Source: Candidatus Moraniibacteriota bacterium | GTDB lineage: Bacteria; Patescibacteriota; Minisyncoccia; Moranbacterales; UBA1568 | Assembly (NCBI GenBank): GCA_013336285.1 | Contig: JAAXTX010000001.1 | Location: 20,201 to 84,200, forward strand | Reading direction: 5' to 3' | Length of the DNA: 64,000 nt | Shown here: one piece after another, positions 6,822-43,805 of the stretch | How the letters are laid out: each line of letters starts with the position of its first letter | Position numbering within the stretch: position 1 is the first letter of the stretch | Translations under genes and position numbers: made by a program | The notes under the pieces: generated by a model | Told to the model about the DNA's origin: nothing | What the model saw: the letters and a program-made list of their open reading frames with translations, nothing else | Database searches by the model: none

Positions 6822-7796
6822 ATGTATAATGTCGTCATGAACCAGAAAACGCCGAAACGGGAAACCCGTATCGAAGAGCTCGCGAAACGGTTCCTCGAAC
6901 ATCTCGAGATCGAGCTGAACCGTTCTCCGAAGACGCTCGACAGCTATACCCGTTCACTTCGGAAGTTTTTCGACGAGAGCGGCGTTCTAGAACCGGAAGA
7001 TATCACGTCCGACCGCGTACGGGAATATCGTCTCGCTCTCAACCGCGCAACGAACGCGCATGGGGAGCCTCTCCGAAAGACGACCCAGACCTATCACATC
7101 GTCGTTCTCCGTTCTTTTCTTAAGTTCCTCGCGAAAGAAGACGAGAAGACTTTCCCGGCCGAGAAAATATCCGTCGGCAAGTCACCGAACCGCGAAGTGG
7201 ACTTTCTCGAACTCGAGGAAGTGGAACGGCTGCTCGCGGCCGCCTCGGGAAGTTCATTACGCGCACTCCGTGATCGCGCCGTCCTCGAGCTCTTCTTCTC
7301 GGCGGGTCTTCGCGTTTCCGAACTCACGTCGCTCAACCGCGATTCGGTGAATCTGAAAAAGGGCGAGTTCAGCGTCCGGGGAAAAGGCGCGAAACTCCGG
7401 GTCGTCTTTCTTTCCGACGACGCCCGCGACGCGCTCTCCCGCTATCTGGACAAGCGCAGCGACATGGACCCGTCACTCTTCATCGCAGTCCCCAAGGCGA
7501 AGCGTACCGCACCGAAGGAACGAAAAGGTCACGCCGGCATGCGTCTCACCGAACGGAGCGTCCAACGTCTCGTGAAGAAGTATGCCGTCAAAGCGGGCAT
7601 CGTCAAGGATGTGCACCCGCATACGCTGCGTCATTCCTTCGCGACAGACCTGCTGCAGAATGGCGCCGACATCCGCGCGGTGCAGTCGATGCTCGGCCAT
7701 TCCTCCATCACGACGACCCAGGTATACACCCACGTTACCAACGAACGTCTCCGCGAGATTCACGAATCCTTCCACGCGAAGAAAAGGAAAAAATAG
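6822..7796 (+). CDS. tyrosine site-specific recombinase, XerC/XerD family
   Basis: C-terminal catalytic region HTLRHSFATDLLQNGADIRAVQSMLGHSSITTTQVYTHV (R..H..R..Y signature of tyrosine recombinases). N-terminal SAM-like core-binding region. The start was chosen at an internal Met; the ORF track gives 6738. Confidence 0.8.
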   Translation: MYNVVMNQKTPKRETRIEELAKRFLEHLEIELNRSPKTLDSYTRSLRKFFDESGVLEPEDITSDRVREYRLALNRATNAHGEPLRKTTQTYHIVVLRSFLKFLAKEDEKTFPAEKISVGKSPNREVDFLELEEVERLLAAASGSSLRALRDRAVLELFFSAGLRVSELTSLNRDSVNLKKGEFSVRGKGAKLRVVFLSDDARDALSRYLDKRSDMDPSLFIAVPKAKRTAPKERKGHAGMRLTERSVQRLVKKYAVKAGIVKDVHPHTLRHSFATDLLQNGADIRAVQSMLGHSSITTTQVYTHVTNERLREIHESFHAKKRKK

Positions 7797-10379: not shown

Positions 10380-10420
10380 ATTGTTAGTGTATTATACACA
10401 CTATATAAATGATGTCAAAT
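10380..10420 (-). promoter_or_regulatory. consensus sigma70-type promoter (-35 TTGACA, 16-nt spacer, -10 TATAAT) with overlapping palindromic operator TAGTGTATTATACACACTA, driving pnuC-nadR-nrtR
   Basis: Minus-strand reading is ggaTTTGACAtcatttatatagtgtgTATAATacactaac. The 40-nt core is almost identical to the cassette at 25331-25380. The palindrome half-sites TAGTGT/ACACTA overlap the -10 element, a typical repressor position. Confidence 0.55.
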
Positions 10421-10513: not shown

Positions 10514-11182
10514 TCAGTAATAGGCATCCAATTCGCAGGTGTTGGGCATAACCTCCTGTATTGCCGTAAACACCACCGTATCGGCAATCTGTTTCGGAGA
10601 GATGAACCTCACGACCTTGGAACGATATTCGTTTACCATATCTTCCGAAAGACCGTCCCATTCCCTTGTTTCCACCGGACCCAGGAGAAAATCGCACACA
10701 GATAACTCGCCGGCCCTCCCTTCAACGGCGTTGATACTCTTGCCCAGGTTATGTAAAAGCGTGAATGCGCCTGAATAAAAGGGTGCGCCCGGCAATCCCT
10801 TCTTTACGCACTGCCCGAGCATATTGATGATCCTCCCGCCATGAGACATGAATGCCTTTGCGGAAGTGATCGCATAAACATGAGCATCCAGGAACGGCCG
10901 TATCGCAAGGTACCCGCCGAAATCAAAATTGTCGCTCTCAAGAAACGGGATGGCGGCCGTCACCATGAGATCGAAGTCCCTCAGGTCGTCAAACAATCCG
11001 GAAAATAATACTTTGACTTGCTCCATATCCCGAAGGTCGCAACATATGCCCTTACCGGGATTTTCCGGCCTGAACGTATGGAAATACGTCCAGACAACAT
11101 CATACCCAGCCGCATGAAGCGCTTTCACGATCGCACTCCCGATATCGCTTCCACCGCCGATCACCAACGCTTTTTTCTGCTT
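10514..11182 (-). CDS. Rossmann-fold short-chain dehydrogenase/reductase-like protein
   Basis: N-terminal KKALVIGGGSDIGSAIVKALHAAGYDV dinucleotide-binding motif. Start set at the MKQKK internal Met that has an upstream SD. Confidence 0.55.
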   Translation of the reverse strand, partial: KQKKALVIGGGSDIGSAIVKALHAAGYDVVWTYFHTFRPENPGKGICCDLRDMEQVKVLFSGLFDDLRDFDLMVTAAIPFLESDNFDFGGYLAIRPFLDAHVYAITSAKAFMSHGGRIINMLGQCVKKGLPGAPFYSGAFTLLHNLGKSINAVEGRAGELSVCDFLLGPVETREWDGLSEDMVNEYRSKVVRFISPKQIADTVVFTAIQEVMPNTCELDAYY

Positions 11183-25154: not shown

Positions 25155-25210
25155 GTCCGTTACTTAGTGTTGTATAAACAATATATATCAGTTATTACTG
25201 ATTGTCAAGA
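25155..25210 (-). promoter_or_regulatory. consensus sigma70-type promoter (-35 TTGACA, 17 nt, -10 TATATT) for the pncB-nadM-nadE... operon, with an operator-like ACACTAAGTAA half-site at the start site
   Basis: Minus-strand reading is tcTTGACAatcagtaataactgataTATATTgtttatacaacactaagtaacgg. Confidence 0.5.
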
Positions 25211-25380: not shown

Positions 25381-25607
25381 GGGAAAGGACGGACAGGAAG
25401 ACGAAGGAGTCACTCAGACAACCGACGGGACCTATTTCATTCCCGGTATCGCTGCCTAAACGACTATTCCTCTCCCATACCGATGCCTTGGCATCGTATC
25501 TCCTTCCCTACTTAGTGTGTTACTTACATTATATAAGCATCTTTACAACTGGATAGGCAGACGAACAACATGGCCTGTTCGAAACGTCAACAAAAAAGGA
25601 GACTACG

Positions 25608-34286: not shown

Positions 34287-34372
34287 CCGTCTTTAGGGAT
34301 ACGTCGACGACATGTCGCTGAAGATGGGGCCGATAGGAAATCATCCTATCGGCGGTTCATGAACGTTTTTTC
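34287..34372. repeat. copy 1 of a conserved double-hairpin element (hairpin CCGTCTTTAG..CTGAAGATGG with conserved ACGTC..GACAT loop, then GCCGATAGG..CCTATCGGC hairpin + T-tract)
   Basis: Same architecture and near-identical CGCTGAAGATGGGGCCGA core as the elements at 41320-41386 and 42592-42670. The first stem is maintained by G-U wobble changes. Confidence 0.5.
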
Positions 34373-34398
34373 GAGACGCCCGAGACTCGTCGGGGATC

Positions 34399-34875
34399 CT
34401 ATGCGCGATACGTGTCGAACACATAGGAACCGGGAAGAATATCTTTGCCCGCCTGGATCACCACGGCATTCGCGACTTCCTGAGGCGAGATGAACCGTGA
34501 AACCTTGGACCGGAATTCCTCTTTCTCCGTCGGATGCCCGTTCCAGATCCGCGTCTCCACTGGCCCGAGCAGAAAATCACATACGAAAAGTCTTCCCTCG
34601 CGTCCCTCCTTGGAATTGATGCTCTTCCCGAGATTATGCAGGAACGCGAACGCCCCGGCATTGAACGCACAGCCCGGGAACCCACGCTCGACGCTTTGTC
34701 CGAGCATATTGATGATTCTCCCTCCGTAAGCCATCATCGTCTTTGCGGAGCAAATCACGTACACGTGCGCGTCCAGAAAAGGCCGGACGGCGAGATATCC
34801 CTCGAAATCGAGATTGTCGACCTGGATGAATAGCATAATCGAGAGGTGAACGGACGAAAATCGCTTATGATTCAA
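34399..34875 (-). pseudogene. truncated paralog (C-terminal ~55%) of the SDR-like gene at 10514-11182
   Basis: Translation aligns with the C-terminal half of the SDR-like protein, for example YLAVRPFLDAHVYVICSAK...RIINMLGQ...VCDFLLGPVETR. The N-terminal Rossmann part is absent. The 5' end overlaps the TrmB-like gene on the other strand. Confidence 0.4.
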
Positions 34876-40781: not shown

Positions 40782-40924
40782 CGAGTCGTTGTATCGGTTT
40801 CCGATTCATGTCGGTAATGAAGTGTTCATATCATCCTATTCCTTTCCGGTATTCCGCGCAAATCAAAAAAGCGTAAGGAATGGTTCTTCCTTACGCTATG
40901 ACAGCATCCGACCGACCGCCGACA

Positions 40925-41284
40925 TCATGACGGGATCTCCAACTTGTCCGTCACCTCGTCCGAAAAGGCGAGACGGACCTCGGACCAGTCCCAACCGCAG
41001 AGCGCCGTCACGACAAGCGCCACTGTGCCGTTCGGACCCCTGAAGTGGGAGAGCTTCTCGAACAGGTATTCGATAGCCCGGTCGGCCGCCTCGTTCCGGA
41101 TGACGATGCCAAGCTCGCCGATGAACGACTCGATGTCGCGCATCGCCTCCTCGGAAAGGACGAAGAGTTTCTTCCCGCGACGCGTCCGCTCCGGCGCCCC
41201 GACACGAAGGTCGAATCCGTCCACGGAAAGATCGTACTCGCCTTTCCTGACGGGCCTGAGTGCTCCGAACATCTGATATCTCAT
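40925..41284 (-). CDS. hypothetical protein (119 aa)
   Basis: GGAGA SD 6 nt upstream of the ATG. No recognisable motifs. Confidence 0.45.
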   Translation of the reverse strand: MRYQMFGALRPVRKGEYDLSVDGFDLRVGAPERTRRGKKLFVLSEEAMRDIESFIGELGIVIRNEAADRAIEYLFEKLSHFRGPNGTVALVVTALCGWDWSEVRLAFSDEVTDKLEIPS

Positions 41285-41319
41285 GTTTATCTCCTTTGAT
41301 TTGAATTTTAAATATCGGA

Positions 41320-41386
41320 TCCATCTTCAGGAGTACGTCGGGACATACCGCTGAAGATGGGGCCGACTACAGTTATCGTATCGGCC
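41320..41386. repeat. copy 2 of the conserved double-hairpin element
   Basis: CCATCTTCAG-gagtacgtcgggacatacc-GCTGAAGATGG, then GGGCCGA-ctacagttatcgta-TCGGCCC. Confidence 0.5.
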
Positions 41387-41900
41387 CGCATTGTACCATC
41401 GACAGATGCCAAGAATGGCAACCGATATGAACCGCTCGGGATTGACCCATATCGGATATCGCACTGTCGGTAGGTGCCGAACATATCCTGTGCATCACAC
41501 GGTTCCAGCCGCGCGAACATTCACATAGAATATGTTCCGGTCATCGAAGCGTCTTCCCTCTCTTGGGGGACATGACCCTCTCATCACGGCAATCGCCCAT
41601 AGCCACGCGCCTTTCGTAAAGAATTCCCTCCCGAACGAGGTTCCCACCATCTTGTCTTGGAAATATCCGAAGAAAAATGGATGATTCTTTACAGCGAGAG
41701 ACAAATACCCCGCGAAGACTGTTGGGAACAATCTTCGGGGACCGGGTTTATGCATGCCATGACCGAATGACCACCCCTTGCAACCGGGGTTACGAAAAGA
41801 ACAACCGAACCCTTGTCCGGTATCGAATCCGCATCCCGCGATACGACCTCGATACCGGAGCCGACAGAAATTATTCATGTCGGCCACTCTACTGTTCGAC

Positions 41901-41972
41901 CCGCTTCGGCCGGATCTCCTTCGTTTCCTCTTGCGAGGTTCTGTTGACAACGGGCGAAGTGGACCCGTCCGG
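41901..41972. repeat. conserved ~70-nt 3'-UTR box (copy A) immediately after the stop of small paralog A
   Basis: ccgcttcggccggatctccttcgtttcctcttgcgaggttctgttgacaacgggcgaagtggacccgtcc. Differs at ~8 positions from copy B at 42676-42745. Confidence 0.45.
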
Positions 41973-41973
41973 A

Positions 41974-42379
41974 TCAGTTCAAGACACGAAGTCCCTTCCT
42001 ACACATCTTAATCCGTACCGTATGACGCGAGCCCCCTGGATCATCGTCTTGGGATGAAAACATCCATCCGTGCCAAAACTTCACGATAATCAGATTCCCA
42101 CGCACGATAACGGATTCGATGCGAGAAATGTCTTCATCATAAGGGTCGTGAGCCCCGAAGATGGAGACGATCGAAAGGCACCCGCGCTTGTCCCGCCAGA
42201 GGACGTGTACCCTTTGAAAGGTATCAAAGGTATCCCCAACGCTCCACTCCCATAATTTCGAAGGCACGACACAAATATCGGCTCGTCCTTCGGGGTAGAC
42301 GTTGGAATGCACACGACACTCCCAGCGGGTACTCCGCTTGACCGCACGGTCCGCGGCCTGTTCAGAAATAGCCTGCATA
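41974..42379 (-). CDS. small hypothetical protein, paralog A (135 aa)
   Basis: Start MQAIS with a GGGGGAGG SD. Homologous over its length to paralog B, for example PEGRADICVV/PKGRQDVCLV, HVLWRDKRGCL/YLVWKDEDGHL and IVKFWHG/TVKFGSG. Confidence 0.5.
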
Positions 42380-42575
42380 CCTCCCCCTTTGCCCCGAAAG
42401 GCCTTTGTGTTCGTCATTTTTTTATGACGAGCGGTTACAAGGAACTTCTTTCTTTACCGGTCAAACGCCCTCACTTGATCCGGGGCAAGGACTTATCGAA
42501 CATCCACAGTTTGATCTTGACAGCAATTACCCTGACGAAAAACTGAAATTTGTTCATTTATATCTCCTGATAAAA

Positions 42576-42670
42576 CCGTTAAAAAAATTAACCCATCTTC
42601 AGCAGCACGTCTGCGACATACCGCTGAAGATGGGGCCGACAAGAATGCTATTCGGGTCGGCCGGGTTTTA
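42576..42670. repeat. copy 3 of the conserved double-hairpin element; its first hairpin plus TTAATTTTTTT acts as a minus-strand intrinsic terminator
   Basis: CCCATCTTCAGC-agcacgtctgcgacatacc-GCTGAAGATGGG, then GGCCGAC-aagaatgctattcgg-GTCGGCC followed by GGGTTTTAT. Confidence 0.5.
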
Positions 42671-42675
42671 TCGAT

Positions 42676-42745
42676 CCGCTCCGGCCGGATCTCCTTCGTT
42701 TCCATTGCGAGGTTCTGTTGCCAACGGGAGAAGTGATCCCGTCCG
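42676..42745. repeat. conserved ~70-nt 3'-UTR box (copy B) after the stop of small paralog B
   Basis: ccgctccggccggatctccttcgtttccattgcgaggttctgttgccaacgggagaagtgatcccgtccg. Confidence 0.45.
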
Positions 42746-42753
42746 ACCGAAAT

Positions 42754-43110
42754 TCAAAGCTTCGACGAACAGCTTCTCTCCCAGGGAGATCCGCTGTAGG
42801 CGCCTCCGCTTCCGAATTTCACCGTCACCGCGTCGCCCTCGACCTCGATACTCTGGGAACTGATATAGTCCTTCGAGTTTCGGGTATTCGCGAGTTCGCG
42901 GTTCCGGAGGTGCCCGTCTTCGTCCTTCCAGACGAGATACAGGGTGTCGTATCCGTACGACGTCCCGTTCTCAGCCGCATGACTGACAAGACAGACATCC
43001 TGTCTTCCCTTGGGAAACGTGGGGCTATACGTGAAATCGCAGCCGAGCTTCGGCGCGATTCCGTTGATATAGCCACGCGCTTCTTCCCGGGTAATGGTAG
43101 GGTGCTCCAT
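42754..43110 (-). CDS. small hypothetical protein, paralog B (118 aa)
   Basis: AGGAGG SD 4 nt upstream of the ATG. Homologous to paralog A (see 41974-42379). Confidence 0.5.
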   Translation of the reverse strand: MEHPTITREEARGYINGIAPKLGCDFTYSPTFPKGRQDVCLVSHAAENGTSYGYDTLYLVWKDEDGHLRNRELANTRNSKDYISSQSIEVEGDAVTVKFGSGGAYSGSPWERSCSSKL

Positions 43111-43179
43111 GTTTCCTCCTGAATTTGAGGTTGATAGGGATATTTTGATCGGTTTTCCGGATATTCCGTCAAACAGGCT

Positions 43180-43353
43180 CTATGATCCGGTTCTCATCCG
43201 ATTCCTGAGTTCGGCCTTGGATCGTTTCCGGTCATACCCTTTCTTCCCGCTCTTCGTGGAGTGAGCCCCGCCCTTGTGACGGAGAAGGTCCACCACCTCC
43301 GTCGGAAGTCGCCACTTGGACGGCTTCGGTTTACGTACCACTATCTTTTTCGA
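43180..43353 (-). CDS. small highly basic protein (58 aa)
   Basis: MSKKIVVRKPKPSKWRLPTEVVDLLRHKGGAHSTKSGKKGYDRKRSKAELRNRMRTGS. Strong SD AAGGAGA. The longer ORF in the track starts at an unlikely upstream Met. Confidence 0.4.
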   Translation of the reverse strand, partial: SKKIVVRKPKPSKWRLPTEVVDLLRHKGGAHSTKSGKKGYDRKRSKAELRNRMRTGS

Positions 43354-43805
43354 CATTATTCTCTCCTTTTTTATCAATTTTCCATTATAAATGTTCTTTT
43401 TCCGGTCAATGACATTCCCTCGGGAACCATGTGTGAAAGACTCATATTGGGGGAATGAATATATTTGAATATTGCCCCGAAATGGCCCGAACACATGGTT
43501 CCACCAGGCTTCCGACCCGCATTTCGCGCTTTCTTGCCGCCATCGCGTCGAAATCGGCGTGTCGCCCAGTTATCCGAGTATGGAATGCCTATCTTTTGAG
43601 GTACCGGCGACGGGTCATTCGACTCGACCAGACAACATAGCGCATCATATAAATCCTGTCAAGTAACATGGACACTATTGCTAACATATTACTTATATAT
43701 GCATTATAAAGGCGTTATTATAATATAAATTATGTCTATGCGATTTGTCTAAATAATTCTAATTGTTTGACGGAACATATGTATCAATCAATATGTCCAT
43801 CGATA

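What the first reader, a model, noticed from the sequence alone, without database searches (positions are those of the whole stretch)
41320..43110. Tandem paralogous small genes, each followed by the same structured 3'-UTR box, and a three-copy double-hairpin element family
The proteins at 41974-42379 and 42754-43110 (minus strand) are clear paralogs (~35-40% identity) with strong SDs. Each stop codon is followed directly by a ~70-nt box that is ~88% identical between copies (41901-41972 and 42676-42745). The double-hairpin element has a first stem CCATCTTCAG/CTGAAGATGG with a conserved loop (ACGTC...GACAT) and a second stem GGCCGA../..TCGGCC. It follows copy B directly (42592-42670), where it doubles as an intrinsic terminator. 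It lies ~500 nt downstream of copy A (41320-41386). A third copy sits at 34287-34372, between convergent genes. In the 34-kb copy the first stem is preserved by two compensatory G-U changes, which argues for selection on RNA structure. The 41400-41900 gap has no credible ORF.
Basis: seen in the sequence. Interest (0 to 1): 0.7.

Follow-up and report, generated by a model that had tools for sequence, protein, structure and literature searches.

The report
Repeated RNA hairpin punctuation between genes
The repeats are real: they belong to a family of folded RNA modules that sit between almost every gene of a variable operon found only in a small group of Moranbacteria (tiny uncultured bacteria), and they most likely mark where the long messenger RNA is cut and protected, not how the two small proteins are regulated.

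Summary
The window is from a Candidatus Moranbacteria MAG.

**In the window (minus strand)**
- Genes at 43110-42754 and 42378-41974 are paralogs, at 29-31% identity rather than 35-40%.
- Each is followed within 2-8 nt by a 74-75-nt box; the two boxes are about 89% identical.
- Covariance models find exactly two boxes and four double hairpins.

**In 10 related loci**
- About 54 distinct double hairpins and about 30 boxes follow one grammar. It runs: stop codon, then 1-40 nt, then an optional box, then 8-11 nt (sometimes 32-37), then a double hairpin.
- 30-41 nt after the hairpin comes a Shine-Dalgarno site and ATG, in 41 of 47 cases.
- All copies are co-oriented with the genes, whatever gene precedes them.
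- Both motifs show strong covariation, wobble pairs that exist only on the sense strand, and GNRA loops.
- Intact-core hammerhead motifs occupy other junctions in relatives.

**Interpretation**
- One promoter and one canonical terminator bracket the window's array.
- Most likely these are RNA punctuation elements of a polycistronic mRNA, acting in processing, stability or insulation.
- Terminator behaviour is peculiar to copy B.
- No Rfam family matches.

The parts
43634..43662 (-). Array promoter (TTGACA, 17 nt, TATGTT)
   Evidence: Promoter scan, 10 of 12 matches. The same promoter sequence is readable at the head of the arrays in L001 and L002.
43357..43633 (-). Conserved structured 5' leader RNA of the array
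   Evidence: Alignment of 8 loci: 61 predicted pairs, 13 with compensatory changes. No Rfam match.
43180..43356 (-). First gene of the array: a 58-aa highly basic protein
   Evidence: Translation. Only 12 homologue clusters, all at or near the head of such arrays in Moranbacteria. No Pfam match.
42754..43110 (-). Gene B, 118 aa (paralog family 'A')
   Evidence: AlphaFold model with pLDDT 89.8. No Pfam match and no informative fold match.
42672..42745 (-). Box B: three-hairpin RNA module starting 8 nt after the stop codon. Its P2 hairpin is damaged by a 1-nt deletion.
   Evidence: Model R1, 88.4 bits. Alignment A4.
42593..42662 (-). Double hairpin B (type 1), followed by the T-run 42583-42592
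   Evidence: Model R2, 80.6 bits. Fold -47.6 kcal/mol, z -8.1. Flagged terminator-like.
42471..42557 (-). 28-aa ORF with a consensus Shine-Dalgarno site, starting exactly 35 nt after double hairpin B. Either a mini-gene or the remnant of a lost cassette.
   Evidence: Sequence. The distance fits the 30-41-nt rule.
41974..42378 (-). Gene A, 134 aa (paralog of B)
   Evidence: An orthologous module (A134, box, type-2 hairpin, non-coding segment, type-1 hairpin) occurs in L056, and a similar one after a 129-aa family member in L065.
41897..41971 (-). Box A: three-hairpin RNA module starting 2 nt after the stop codon, with a GCAA tetraloop on P2
   Evidence: Model R1, 98.4 bits. Alignment A4.
41817..41885 (-). 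Double hairpin type 2: the same first hairpin, with a second stem CCGGTATCGAGG/TTCGATACCGG
Evidence: Model R2, 73.3 bits. Fold -43.8 kcal/mol, z -5.6.
41387..41816 (-). ORF-less segment that follows the type-2 hairpin. It is a divergent counterpart of the 300-530-nt structured non-coding segments in relatives.
   Evidence: Only the first ~40 nt match the family (nhmmer E 0.002). The model R3 does not recognise the rest. Fold z -2.4. Weak similarity to L065 7118-7543.
41321..41386 (-). Double hairpin A (type 1), 36 nt upstream of the next start codon
   Evidence: Model R2, 70.7 bits. Spacing.
40925..41284 (-). Last gene of the array, 119 aa (family 'F')
   Evidence: Full-length orthologues end the arrays in L002 and L037, and shorter 63-aa members sit last in L063 and within L053. 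No Pfam match.
40870..40897 (-). Canonical intrinsic terminator closing the array
   Evidence: Terminator scan: 11-bp stem followed by TTTTTT. A closely similar hairpin ends the arrays of L001 and L002.
34287..34354 (-). Double hairpin C (type 1, degraded). It lies in the 3' UTR of a truncated SDR gene, with no downstream gene.
   Evidence: Model R2, 62.8 bits. Antisense folds better than sense. Relatives have an intact dh-SDR-box-dh-gene-dh operon here.

Best explanation
**Setting.** The box and the double hairpin are two of several RNA modules that punctuate a polycistronic operon. The operon is specific to a narrow Moranbacteria clade.

**Layout in the window (minus strand).** One promoter at 43662-43634 drives a transcript that runs to one canonical terminator at 40897-40870. 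It carries, in order:
1. A structured leader.
2. A gene for a 58-aa basic protein.
3. Gene B, then a box, then a type-1 double hairpin.
4. Gene A, then a box, then a type-2 double hairpin, then a non-coding segment, then a type-1 double hairpin.
5. A gene for a 119-aa protein.

**Proposed mechanism.** The modules act on the sense-strand RNA.
- The box is three short hairpins plus an exposed GAAGGAGAU stretch. It sits at the 3' edge of the upstream cistron.
- The double hairpin is two abutting helices. The second is about 19-20 bp with a conserved internal mismatch.
- After the double hairpin comes a G/C-poor 20-nt single-stranded spacer, then the next Shine-Dalgarno site.
- I propose that the transcript is cut in or next to these modules, either by an endonuclease in the A/U-rich spacer or by RNase III in the long helix.
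- The remaining hairpins would then cap the 3' end of the upstream mRNA against exonucleases. They would also keep the downstream ribosome-binding site structurally insulated.
- The effect would be that each cistron gets its own stability and translation rate.

**By-product.** The 70-150-nt repeats at every junction provide homology for gain, loss and reshuffling of gene modules. This would explain the mosaic gene content among relatives.

**Shown versus inferred.**
- Shown: the structures, their covariation, the strand, the positional grammar, the single promoter and terminator, and hammerhead motifs at other junctions in relatives.
- Inferred: cleavage, stabilisation and insulation.
For: **Structure**
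- Double hairpin, 54 distinct copies: 92.6% of cells paired against 31-47% in slid controls. 19 of 26 pairs have two-sided changes. Covariation score 0.379 against 0.196, with 0 of 500 shuffles reaching it.
- Type 1 and type 2 differ at most positions of the outer stem yet stay paired.
- The distal part of the first hairpin is replaced by unrelated sequences that still pair.
- Box: 94-95% paired, and 8-11 of 17-18 pairs have two-sided changes. P2 is capped by five different GNRA tetraloops in 15 of 23 copies.

**Strand**
- Every high-scoring copy is co-oriented with the genes.
- Conserved wobble pairs exist only on the sense strand: U-G in 44 of 54 copies and G-U in 33 of 54 for the double hairpin, and G-U in 23 of 30 for the box.
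- The sense strand folds better in 47 of 54 copies.

**Grammar**
- Stop to box is 1-40 nt in 24 of 29 cases.
- Box to double hairpin is 8-11 nt in 17 cases and 32-37 nt in 6.
- Type-1/3 hairpin to ATG is 30-41 nt in 40 of 47 cases, plus one at 50 nt, always with a Shine-Dalgarno site.

**Operon**
- One near-consensus promoter and one canonical terminator bracket the array. No comparable internal promoter was found.
- Hammerhead type III motifs with an intact CUGAUGA...GAAAC core and a GUC (one copy GUU) cleavage site lie at other intercistronic junctions. They are L063 13413-13467 and 13974-14028, and L065 6469-6523, at 46.8-46.9 bits and E about 3e-7.
- Degenerate hammerhead copies occur in L001 and L002.
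- The same elements also punctuate a second operon that encodes enzymes (PALP, SDR).

**Mosaicism**
- Gene modules occur in different combinations between the same flanks.
Against: - There are no transcript data, so no cleavage or stabilisation has been observed.
- The helical parts of the type-1 hairpin are conserved in sequence well beyond what pairing needs. That hints at a specific protein partner or at recent homogenisation.
- Several diverged copies carry C-A mismatches on the sense strand that would be G-U on the antisense strand. These are window copy C, L053 6955, L058 8933 and L056 12204.
- The A/T-rich spacer often holds a -10-like hexamer (CACAAT, TATAAT, TAAAAT). Internal promoters are therefore not excluded.
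- Copy B does look like a terminator.
- Much of the counted covariation comes from few events (type 1 against type 2), and the copies are related by descent.
Confidence: 0.55

Rival explanations
1. Each gene is its own transcription unit. The double hairpin ends the upstream transcript. Its 3' arm (CTGAAG) together with the A/T-rich spacer forms a weak sigma-70-type promoter for the next gene.
For: - There is a constant 30-41-nt distance to the start codon.
- Many spacers contain -10-like hexamers 13-17 nt after CTGAAG (read).
- Copy B is flagged terminator-like.
- Type-2 hairpins lack CTGAAG and are never followed by a gene.
Against: - CTGAAG matches TTGACA at only 3 of 6 positions, and the spacing varies from 13 to 17 nt.
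- Some spacers have no -10-like hexamer, for example GAAACAAAACAACAAAC.
- The promoter scan finds none inside the array.
- Only about 1-3 of 47 copies carry a T-run, whereas canonical U-tract terminators close the operons.
- Hammerhead ribozymes between cistrons imply co-transcription.
Confidence: 0.15
2. The modules act as DNA. They are recombination sites that delimit mobile gene cassettes, in the manner of an integron, and gene shuffling is their function rather than a by-product.
For: - Gene content is a mosaic between conserved flanks.
- A repeat sits at nearly every junction.
- Non-coding segments are flanked by near-identical direct copies of the first hairpin.
- After gene B, the window has a canonical hairpin where L001, L037 and L065 have a variant hairpin followed by a different gene.
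Against: - No integrase or recombinase is among the neighbours with precomputed Pfam hits in five loci.
- No R''/R' (RYYYAAC / GTTRRRY) motifs are present (read).
- Sense-specific wobble pairs and GNRA loops point to RNA.
- A fixed distance to start codons is not expected of recombination sites.
Confidence: 0.1
3. They are selfish REP- or MITE-like palindromic repeats that have spread into intergenic DNA and are tolerated there without function.
For: - They are palindromic, repeated and intergenic.
- Sequence identity between copies is high.
- A degraded copy exists at 34 kb.
Against: - They are not dispersed. All four copies in the 64-kb window lie in two neighbouring operons, and flanking regions of the related loci have none.
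- Orientation is strict and the spacing grammar is strict.
- No terminal inverted repeats or target duplications surround the box-plus-hairpin unit (read).
- Compensatory evolution persists in low-GC relatives.
- No matches in phage, plasmid or viral collections.
Confidence: 0.1
4. The hairpins and/or the box are operators for an RNA-binding protein. The obvious candidate is the 58-aa basic protein encoded first in the arrays. Binding would control translation or decay of each cistron.
For: - The stems are conserved in sequence beyond what structure requires.
- A Lys/Arg-rich small protein leads the array in eight of the nine related loci whose 5' end was captured, and lies just upstream in L001.
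- The operator lies at a fixed distance from the ribosome-binding site.
Against: - There is no evidence that the protein binds RNA, and it has no recognisable domain.
- The second operon (PALP-SDR) uses the same elements without that gene nearby.
- This idea is compatible with, rather than exclusive of, the processing model.
Confidence: 0.1

Closest known systems
RNase III processing hairpins between the early genes of phage T7 (established knowledge, recalled, not tested here)
   Same: - A long polycistronic RNA with a roughly 20-bp hairpin, carrying an internal irregularity, between cistrons.
- The hairpin lies a few tens of nucleotides before the next start codon.
- The retained hairpin protects the upstream 3' end.
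   Different: - Here there are two abutting hairpins plus an optional three-hairpin box.
- The copies are near-identical in sequence.
- The host is a CPR bacterium.
- Cleavage is not shown.
REP/BIME elements of enterobacteria (established knowledge, recalled)
   Same: - Imperfect palindromes in intercistronic and 3'-untranslated regions.
- They are transcribed with the operon and stabilise upstream mRNA segments.
- A REP close to a stop codon can influence translation of the upstream gene.
   Different: - REPs are dispersed genome-wide in hundreds of copies, in both orientations, with no fixed distance to the next start codon, and are linked to RAYT transposases.
- The elements here are confined to particular operons, strictly oriented and strictly spaced.
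Pneumococcal BOX and Neisseria Correia elements (established knowledge, recalled)
   Same: - Modular composite intergenic repeats.
- They fold as RNA and alter expression or processing of neighbouring genes.
   Different: - Those are dispersed MITE-like elements with terminal inverted repeats.
- They have no regular gene-repeat-gene grammar.
Integron attC sites
   Same: - A repeat follows each of a row of co-oriented, often unknown, small genes.
- Gene content varies between relatives.
   Different: - No attC core motifs and no integrase nearby.
- The pairing pattern indicates RNA rather than single-stranded DNA.
- Each gene has its own ribosome-binding site at a fixed distance from the repeat.
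Hammerhead ribozymes in bacterial operons, and the synthetic 'RiboJ' insulator (ribozyme plus hairpin)
   Same: - Relatives of this array carry hammerhead type III motifs at intercistronic junctions.
- The logic of cleaving and then leaving a hairpin before the ribosome-binding site is the same.
   Different: - The double hairpin itself has no unpaired conserved core and is not a ribozyme candidate.
- The window has no hammerhead.

Membership tests
Any Rfam 15 family | Match to a curated covariance model at its gathering score | tested here: not met
   No hits in the window at gathering thresholds. Only chance-level hits (E >= 0.86) in 41200-43300.
Intrinsic (Rho-independent) terminator | G+C-rich stem-loop immediately followed by a U-tract | tested here: not met
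   Met only by copy B (stem followed by TTAATTTTTT). Copies A, C and the type-2 copy lack a T-run. Read from the spacers, about 1-3 of 47 related copies have one. Canonical terminators occur at the operon ends.
REP/BIME | Short imperfect palindrome in transcribed extragenic DNA | tested here: met
REP/BIME | Many copies dispersed around the genome, in both orientations | tested here: not met
   Four copies in 64 kb, all minus-strand and in two neighbouring operons. None in the flanking kilobases of related loci. Only partial genomes were available.
REP/BIME | Associated RAYT (REP-associated tyrosine transposase) in the genome | not testable with these tools
   No complete genome of the clade was available. 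None seen among neighbours with Pfam hits.
Integron attC site | R''(RYYYAAC)...R'(GTTRRRY) cores bounding one long imperfect hairpin | tested here: not met
   By inspection of all window copies and of L001, no such cores are present. The architecture is two or five separate hairpins.
Integron attC site | Adjacent intI integrase with attI and Pc | tested here: not met
   The arrays are flanked by TrmB-family regulators. No recombinase appears in the gene tables of L056, L058, L063, L064 and L065.
MITE | Terminal inverted repeats and target-site duplication | tested here: not met
   The box start (CGGACGGG) and the hairpin end (GAAGATGG) are not inverted repeats of each other. No flanking duplications are visible.
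Hammerhead ribozyme (type III) | CUGANGA and GAAA cores, three stems, cleavage triplet | tested here: inconclusive
   Not present in the window. Related arrays have three copies with an intact core at 46.8-46.9 bits, just under the gathering score of 48.5, and two with core lesions. Activity was not tested.
RNase III substrate | About two helical turns of double-stranded RNA, often with an internal loop | tested here: met
   The second hairpin has 19 pairs and a conserved irregularity at alignment pair 44-71, unpaired in 34 of 54 copies.
RNase III substrate | Cleavage by RNase III | not testable with these tools
   Needs an enzyme assay or end-mapping.

The most novel reading that the evidence does not exclude
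This Moranbacteria clade runs a cassette operon defined by RNA modules. Standard modules (box, type-1/2/3 double hairpins, hammerhead ribozymes) would delimit interchangeable units that can be protein genes or 300-500-nt structured non-coding RNAs. The same modules would direct processing of the transcript into discrete stable RNAs. They would also act as the joints at which cassettes are exchanged between genomes. That would be an integron-like gene-shuffling platform without an integrase.
Probability: 0.15. Interest if true: 0.85.

Novelty: new variant of a known kind. Interest (0 to 1): 0.6.

Why it matters
Bacteria of the candidate phyla radiation are uncultured, and their gene regulation is almost unknown. 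This locus offers four or five undescribed conserved RNA structures plus hammerhead motifs: a leader, a box, double hairpins and long non-coding segments. They are arranged in a strict, readable grammar inside one operon.

If the processing model is right, it is a natural example of operon punctuation by standard RNA parts, the same logic synthetic biologists build with ribozyme-hairpin insulators. It would give a direct handle on how these minimal cells set the expression of individual cistrons.

The mosaic of unknown genes between conserved flanks also marks the operon as a fast-evolving island. It may be involved in the host-dependent lifestyle of these bacteria.

Tried and rejected
**RNA family and literature searches**
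- Rfam gave nothing for the box, the hairpins, the gap or the leader, at gathering and E-value thresholds.
- Two literature searches found no description of these elements.

**Protein searches**
- Pfam gave nothing for genes A, B, the 119-aa protein, the 58-aa protein and eight array proteins from relatives, apart from sub-threshold noise.
- The AlphaFold-database library was unavailable.

**The gap**
- The large non-coding RNA model R3 does not recognise the window's gap, with or without filters. I do not claim the gap is a member of that family.

**Scans of public collections**
- The metagenome pattern scan also returned two unrelated classes. One is a conserved membrane-protein coding sequence. 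The other is about 35 termite-gut loci where the same 8-bp stem is the tip of a roughly 150-nt perfect palindrome. R2 scores those at only 19-32 bits, so I treated them as a different element.
- Phage and plasmid collections had no match, and IMG/VR viral contigs only a weak chance-level hit.

**Readings rejected**
- The box as coding sequence. It follows genes in different frames, and its copies differ by indels that are not multiples of three.
- The double hairpin as a ribozyme. It has no conserved unpaired core.
- A first pattern with a wrong loop length found nothing.
Full report
**1. What is in the window**

Read on the minus strand, the region runs as follows.

| Feature | Coordinates |
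|---|---|
| Gene B, 118 aa | 43110-42754 |
| Conserved box | 42745-42672 |
| Double hairpin, followed by a T-run | 42662-42593 |
| 28-aa ORF with a consensus ribosome-binding site | 42557-42471 |
| Gene A, 134 aa | 42378-41974 |
| Second box | 41971-41897 |
| 430 nt without a credible ORF | 41816-41387 |
| Third double hairpin | 41386-41321 |
| 119-aa gene | 41284-40925 |

- A and B are paralogs at 29-31% identity, E 1e-9.
- The boxes are about 89% identical, counted by eye on the two copies (8 differences in 75; repeat blocks of 90% and 94%). The coding sequences beside them have diverged to about 30% at the protein level.
- A further double hairpin lies at 34354-34287.
- Covariance models were built from related sequences. 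They find exactly these four double hairpins (63-81 bits) and these two boxes (88 and 98 bits) in the 64-kb window, all on the minus strand.

**2. Where it comes from**

- Gene B is identical to a hypothetical protein of a Candidatus Moranbacteria MAG.
- The A/B family and the small basic protein encoded just upstream each have only 12 clusters among 5.8 billion sequences. All are unannotated.
- Two pattern scans and seven contig look-ups that returned DNA gave ten independent related loci: L001, L002, L003/L037, L053, L056, L058, L063, L064, L065 and L067-L069.

**3. The grammar**

In every related locus the same layout appears.
- A TrmB-family regulator gene comes first, then a near-consensus promoter and a conserved leader of about 280 nt.
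- The 55-58-aa basic protein follows, then a row of co-oriented genes without Pfam domains.
- A canonical terminator closes the row.

Between the genes the modules recur with regular spacing.

| Interval | Distance | How often |
|---|---|---|
| Stop codon to box | 1-40 nt | 24 of 29 |
| Box to double hairpin | 8-11 nt | 17 cases |
| Box to double hairpin, with an extra small hairpin between | 32-37 nt | 6 cases |
| Type-1/3 hairpin to a start codon with a Shine-Dalgarno site | 30-41 nt (mode 36-40) | 40 of 47, plus one at 50 nt |

- The spacer before the start codon is A/T-rich and nearly G-free.
- The double hairpin comes in types. They share the first hairpin (GGCCGAC...GTCGGCC) and the overall shape.
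- Type 1 (second stem CCATCTTCAG/CTGAAGATGG) precedes genes.
- Type 2 (second stem CCGGTATCGAGG/TTCGATACCGG) is always followed by 300-530 nt of ORF-less sequence. That sequence ends in another double hairpin, usually type 1.
- The window shows both situations.
- The box follows at least eight unrelated gene families. It is therefore a property of the operon, not of the two paralogs.

**4. Structure and strand**

*Double hairpin.* On a MAFFT alignment of 54 distinct copies:
- The two-helix model is 92.6% paired, against 31-47% when partners are slid.
- 19 of 26 pairs show two-sided changes.
- No shuffle out of 500 reaches the observed covariation.
- Between type 1 and type 2, most outer-stem pairs are exchanged for different Watson-Crick pairs.
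- The base pair closing the first hairpin alternates between G-C and A-U.
- The distal part of the first hairpin is replaced by unrelated but self-complementary sequences.

*Box.* It folds into three hairpins.
- It is 94.3% paired on the unbiased alignment and 95.1% on the model-fitted one. 8 and 11 pairs respectively carry two-sided changes.
- Its middle hairpin carries GCAA, GGAA, GAGA, GAAA or GUAA tetraloops in 15 of 23 copies.
- Between the second and third hairpins lies a nearly invariant GGAAACGAAGGAGAU. It looks like a ribosome-binding site, but no start codon follows it.

*Strand.* The evidence points to the gene-sense RNA.
- All strong matches are co-oriented with the genes.
- Wobble pairs conserved in most copies would be A-C mismatches on the other strand.
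- The sense strand folds better in 47 of 54 copies.

**5. The 34-kb copy**

They give G-U only on the plus strand, which is antisense to the gene this copy follows.
- On the sense strand the stem is broken: -28.3 against -40.1 kcal/mol.
- The gene upstream is a truncated SDR oxidoreductase of 145-158 aa. Its homologues are 216 aa.
- In relatives the same place holds an intact second punctuated operon: PALP, double hairpin, SDR, box, double hairpin, a 150-aa gene, double hairpin.
- In the window most of the box and the downstream gene are gone.
- I read this copy as a decaying remnant, so it cannot carry the argument for selection. The evidence from relatives does carry it.

**6. Operon status and RNA processing**

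- The only good promoter match facing the array is at 43662-43634. The only canonical terminator after it is at 40897-40870.
- Double hairpin B is also flagged terminator-like, because it happens to be followed by TTAATTTTTT. Its counterparts in relatives are not.
- In L063 and L065, three intercistronic positions carry hammerhead type III motifs with intact cores and GUC or GUU cleavage sites. They score 46.8-46.9 bits, E about 3e-7, just below Rfam's gathering score of 48.5.
- L001 and L002 carry versions with single core lesions whose stems covary.
- A ribozyme between cistrons only makes sense on a polycistronic RNA that is meant to be cut.
- Taken together with the spacing grammar, this is my reason to favour an RNA punctuation model. 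The transcript would be cut at or next to the modules. The hairpins would protect the new 3' ends and keep the next ribosome-binding site free of upstream structure.
- The second hairpin has about 19 pairs and a conserved internal irregularity. That is the shape of an RNase III substrate, but cleavage is an inference.

**7. The gap**

- In relatives, the segments after type-2 hairpins form families at 67-98% identity. They have a consensus multi-domain fold of 86 predicted pairs, 10 with compensatory changes.
- The window's 430-nt gap shares only the first ~40 nt (nhmmer E 0.002). It has weak similarity to one L065 segment and a modest folding z-score of -2.4.
- The structural model of the best-defined subfamily does not recognise it.
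- It is the homologous slot, but I cannot say it is a functional member.

**8. Mosaic content**

- Clustering the array proteins shows the same dozen families in different combinations and numbers, in a partly conserved order.
- The window's array is the shortest.
- The module [quoted passage not shown] recurs in L056. L065 carries a similar module after a 129-aa family member.
- After gene B, the window has a canonical hairpin where L001, L037 and L065 have a variant hairpin followed by another gene.
- Repeats of 70-150 nt at every junction are an obvious substrate for such rearrangements.
- I found no recombinase nearby, no attC-type motifs, and no sign of the elements in phage, plasmid or viral collections.

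**9. The proteins**

- Protein B gives a confident model (pLDDT 89.8): one helix packed on a six-strand meander sheet.
- It has no informative neighbour in the PDB.
- Nothing links the paralogs functionally to the box.

**10. Verdict**

- The repeats are real, non-random and conserved by structure.
- They are members of an undescribed, lineage-specific set of RNA modules that punctuate operons.
- The kind of thing is known: intercistronic hairpin repeats such as REP elements or the T7 RNase III sites.
- New here are the strict grammar, the modular set of parts, the association with hammerheads and long non-coding inserts, and the setting in candidate-phyla-radiation bacteria.
- The structure and the strand are well supported. 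The mechanism is inferred.

Noticed in passing
window 43357-43633 (minus): The ~280-nt leader between the array promoter and the first gene is conserved in 8 loci. It folds into a multi-helix structure with compensatory changes in 13 of 61 predicted pairs. No Rfam match. It is a candidate cis-regulatory or riboswitch-like RNA.
   Followed up: partly
L063 13413-13467 and 13974-14028; L065 6469-6523; L001 3731-3785; L002 2040-2093: Hammerhead type III motifs lie at intercistronic junctions of related arrays. Three have intact cores (46.8-46.9 bits, just under Rfam's gathering score). Two carry a single core lesion (U4 to C, or A6 missing) but have covarying stems. None is in the window.
   Followed up: partly
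L001 2513-2892, L065 7615-8002, L053 886-1265, L037 4084-4441 and relatives: A family of 300-530-nt ORF-less segments always follows a type-2 double hairpin and ends in another double hairpin. The segments share a long-range closing helix and several covarying hairpins. This is a candidate large non-coding RNA class.
   Followed up: partly
L001 about 6990-7000 (minus): In L001 the small basic-protein gene has an in-frame TGA where the window has TGG (Trp). It could be a pseudogene, a downstream start or recoding.
   Followed up: no
L005-L010, L012-L017, L019, L020 and about 20 further metagenome loci: About 35 loci, apparently from termite-gut metagenomes, carry a roughly 150-nt near-perfect palindrome. 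Its tip is the same CCATCTTC...GAAGATGG stem, flanked by TCGGCC/GGCCGA. R2 scores it at only 19-32 bits, so it looks like a different, possibly mobile, element.
   Followed up: no
window 34399-34875 (minus) and 10731-10934: The gene before hairpin copy C is a truncated SDR oxidoreductase. A 70%-identical stretch at 10.7 kb belongs to a full-length paralog on the same contig.
   Followed up: partly
window 42471-42557 (minus): A 28-aa ORF with a consensus ribosome-binding site starts exactly 35 nt after double hairpin B, the canonical spacing. It is either a mini-gene or the stump of a lost cassette.
   Followed up: no
L001 3313-3378; L037 3580-3645: A third double-hairpin type occurs: first stem GGCCGAG...CTCGGCC, second stem ATGTATTCAAGTGCG.../...CGCGTTTGAATGCAG. 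It ends an ORF-less segment in the place a type-1 copy usually occupies, and in L001 it precedes a gene.
   Followed up: no
L002 1263-1297; L056 8473-8505; L063 10730-10762; window 34355-34398: In some copies an extra small hairpin followed by an A-run (GAGTTGAGGGTCCTCGAAAAAAC) sits between box and double hairpin. The window keeps a version of it before copy C.
   Followed up: no
window 10381-10407, 25161-25187, 25509-25535: Three copies of an A/T-rich 27-nt motif (TACTTAGTGT...ATATA) appear in the repeat scan. Possibly a shared promoter or operator.
   Followed up: no
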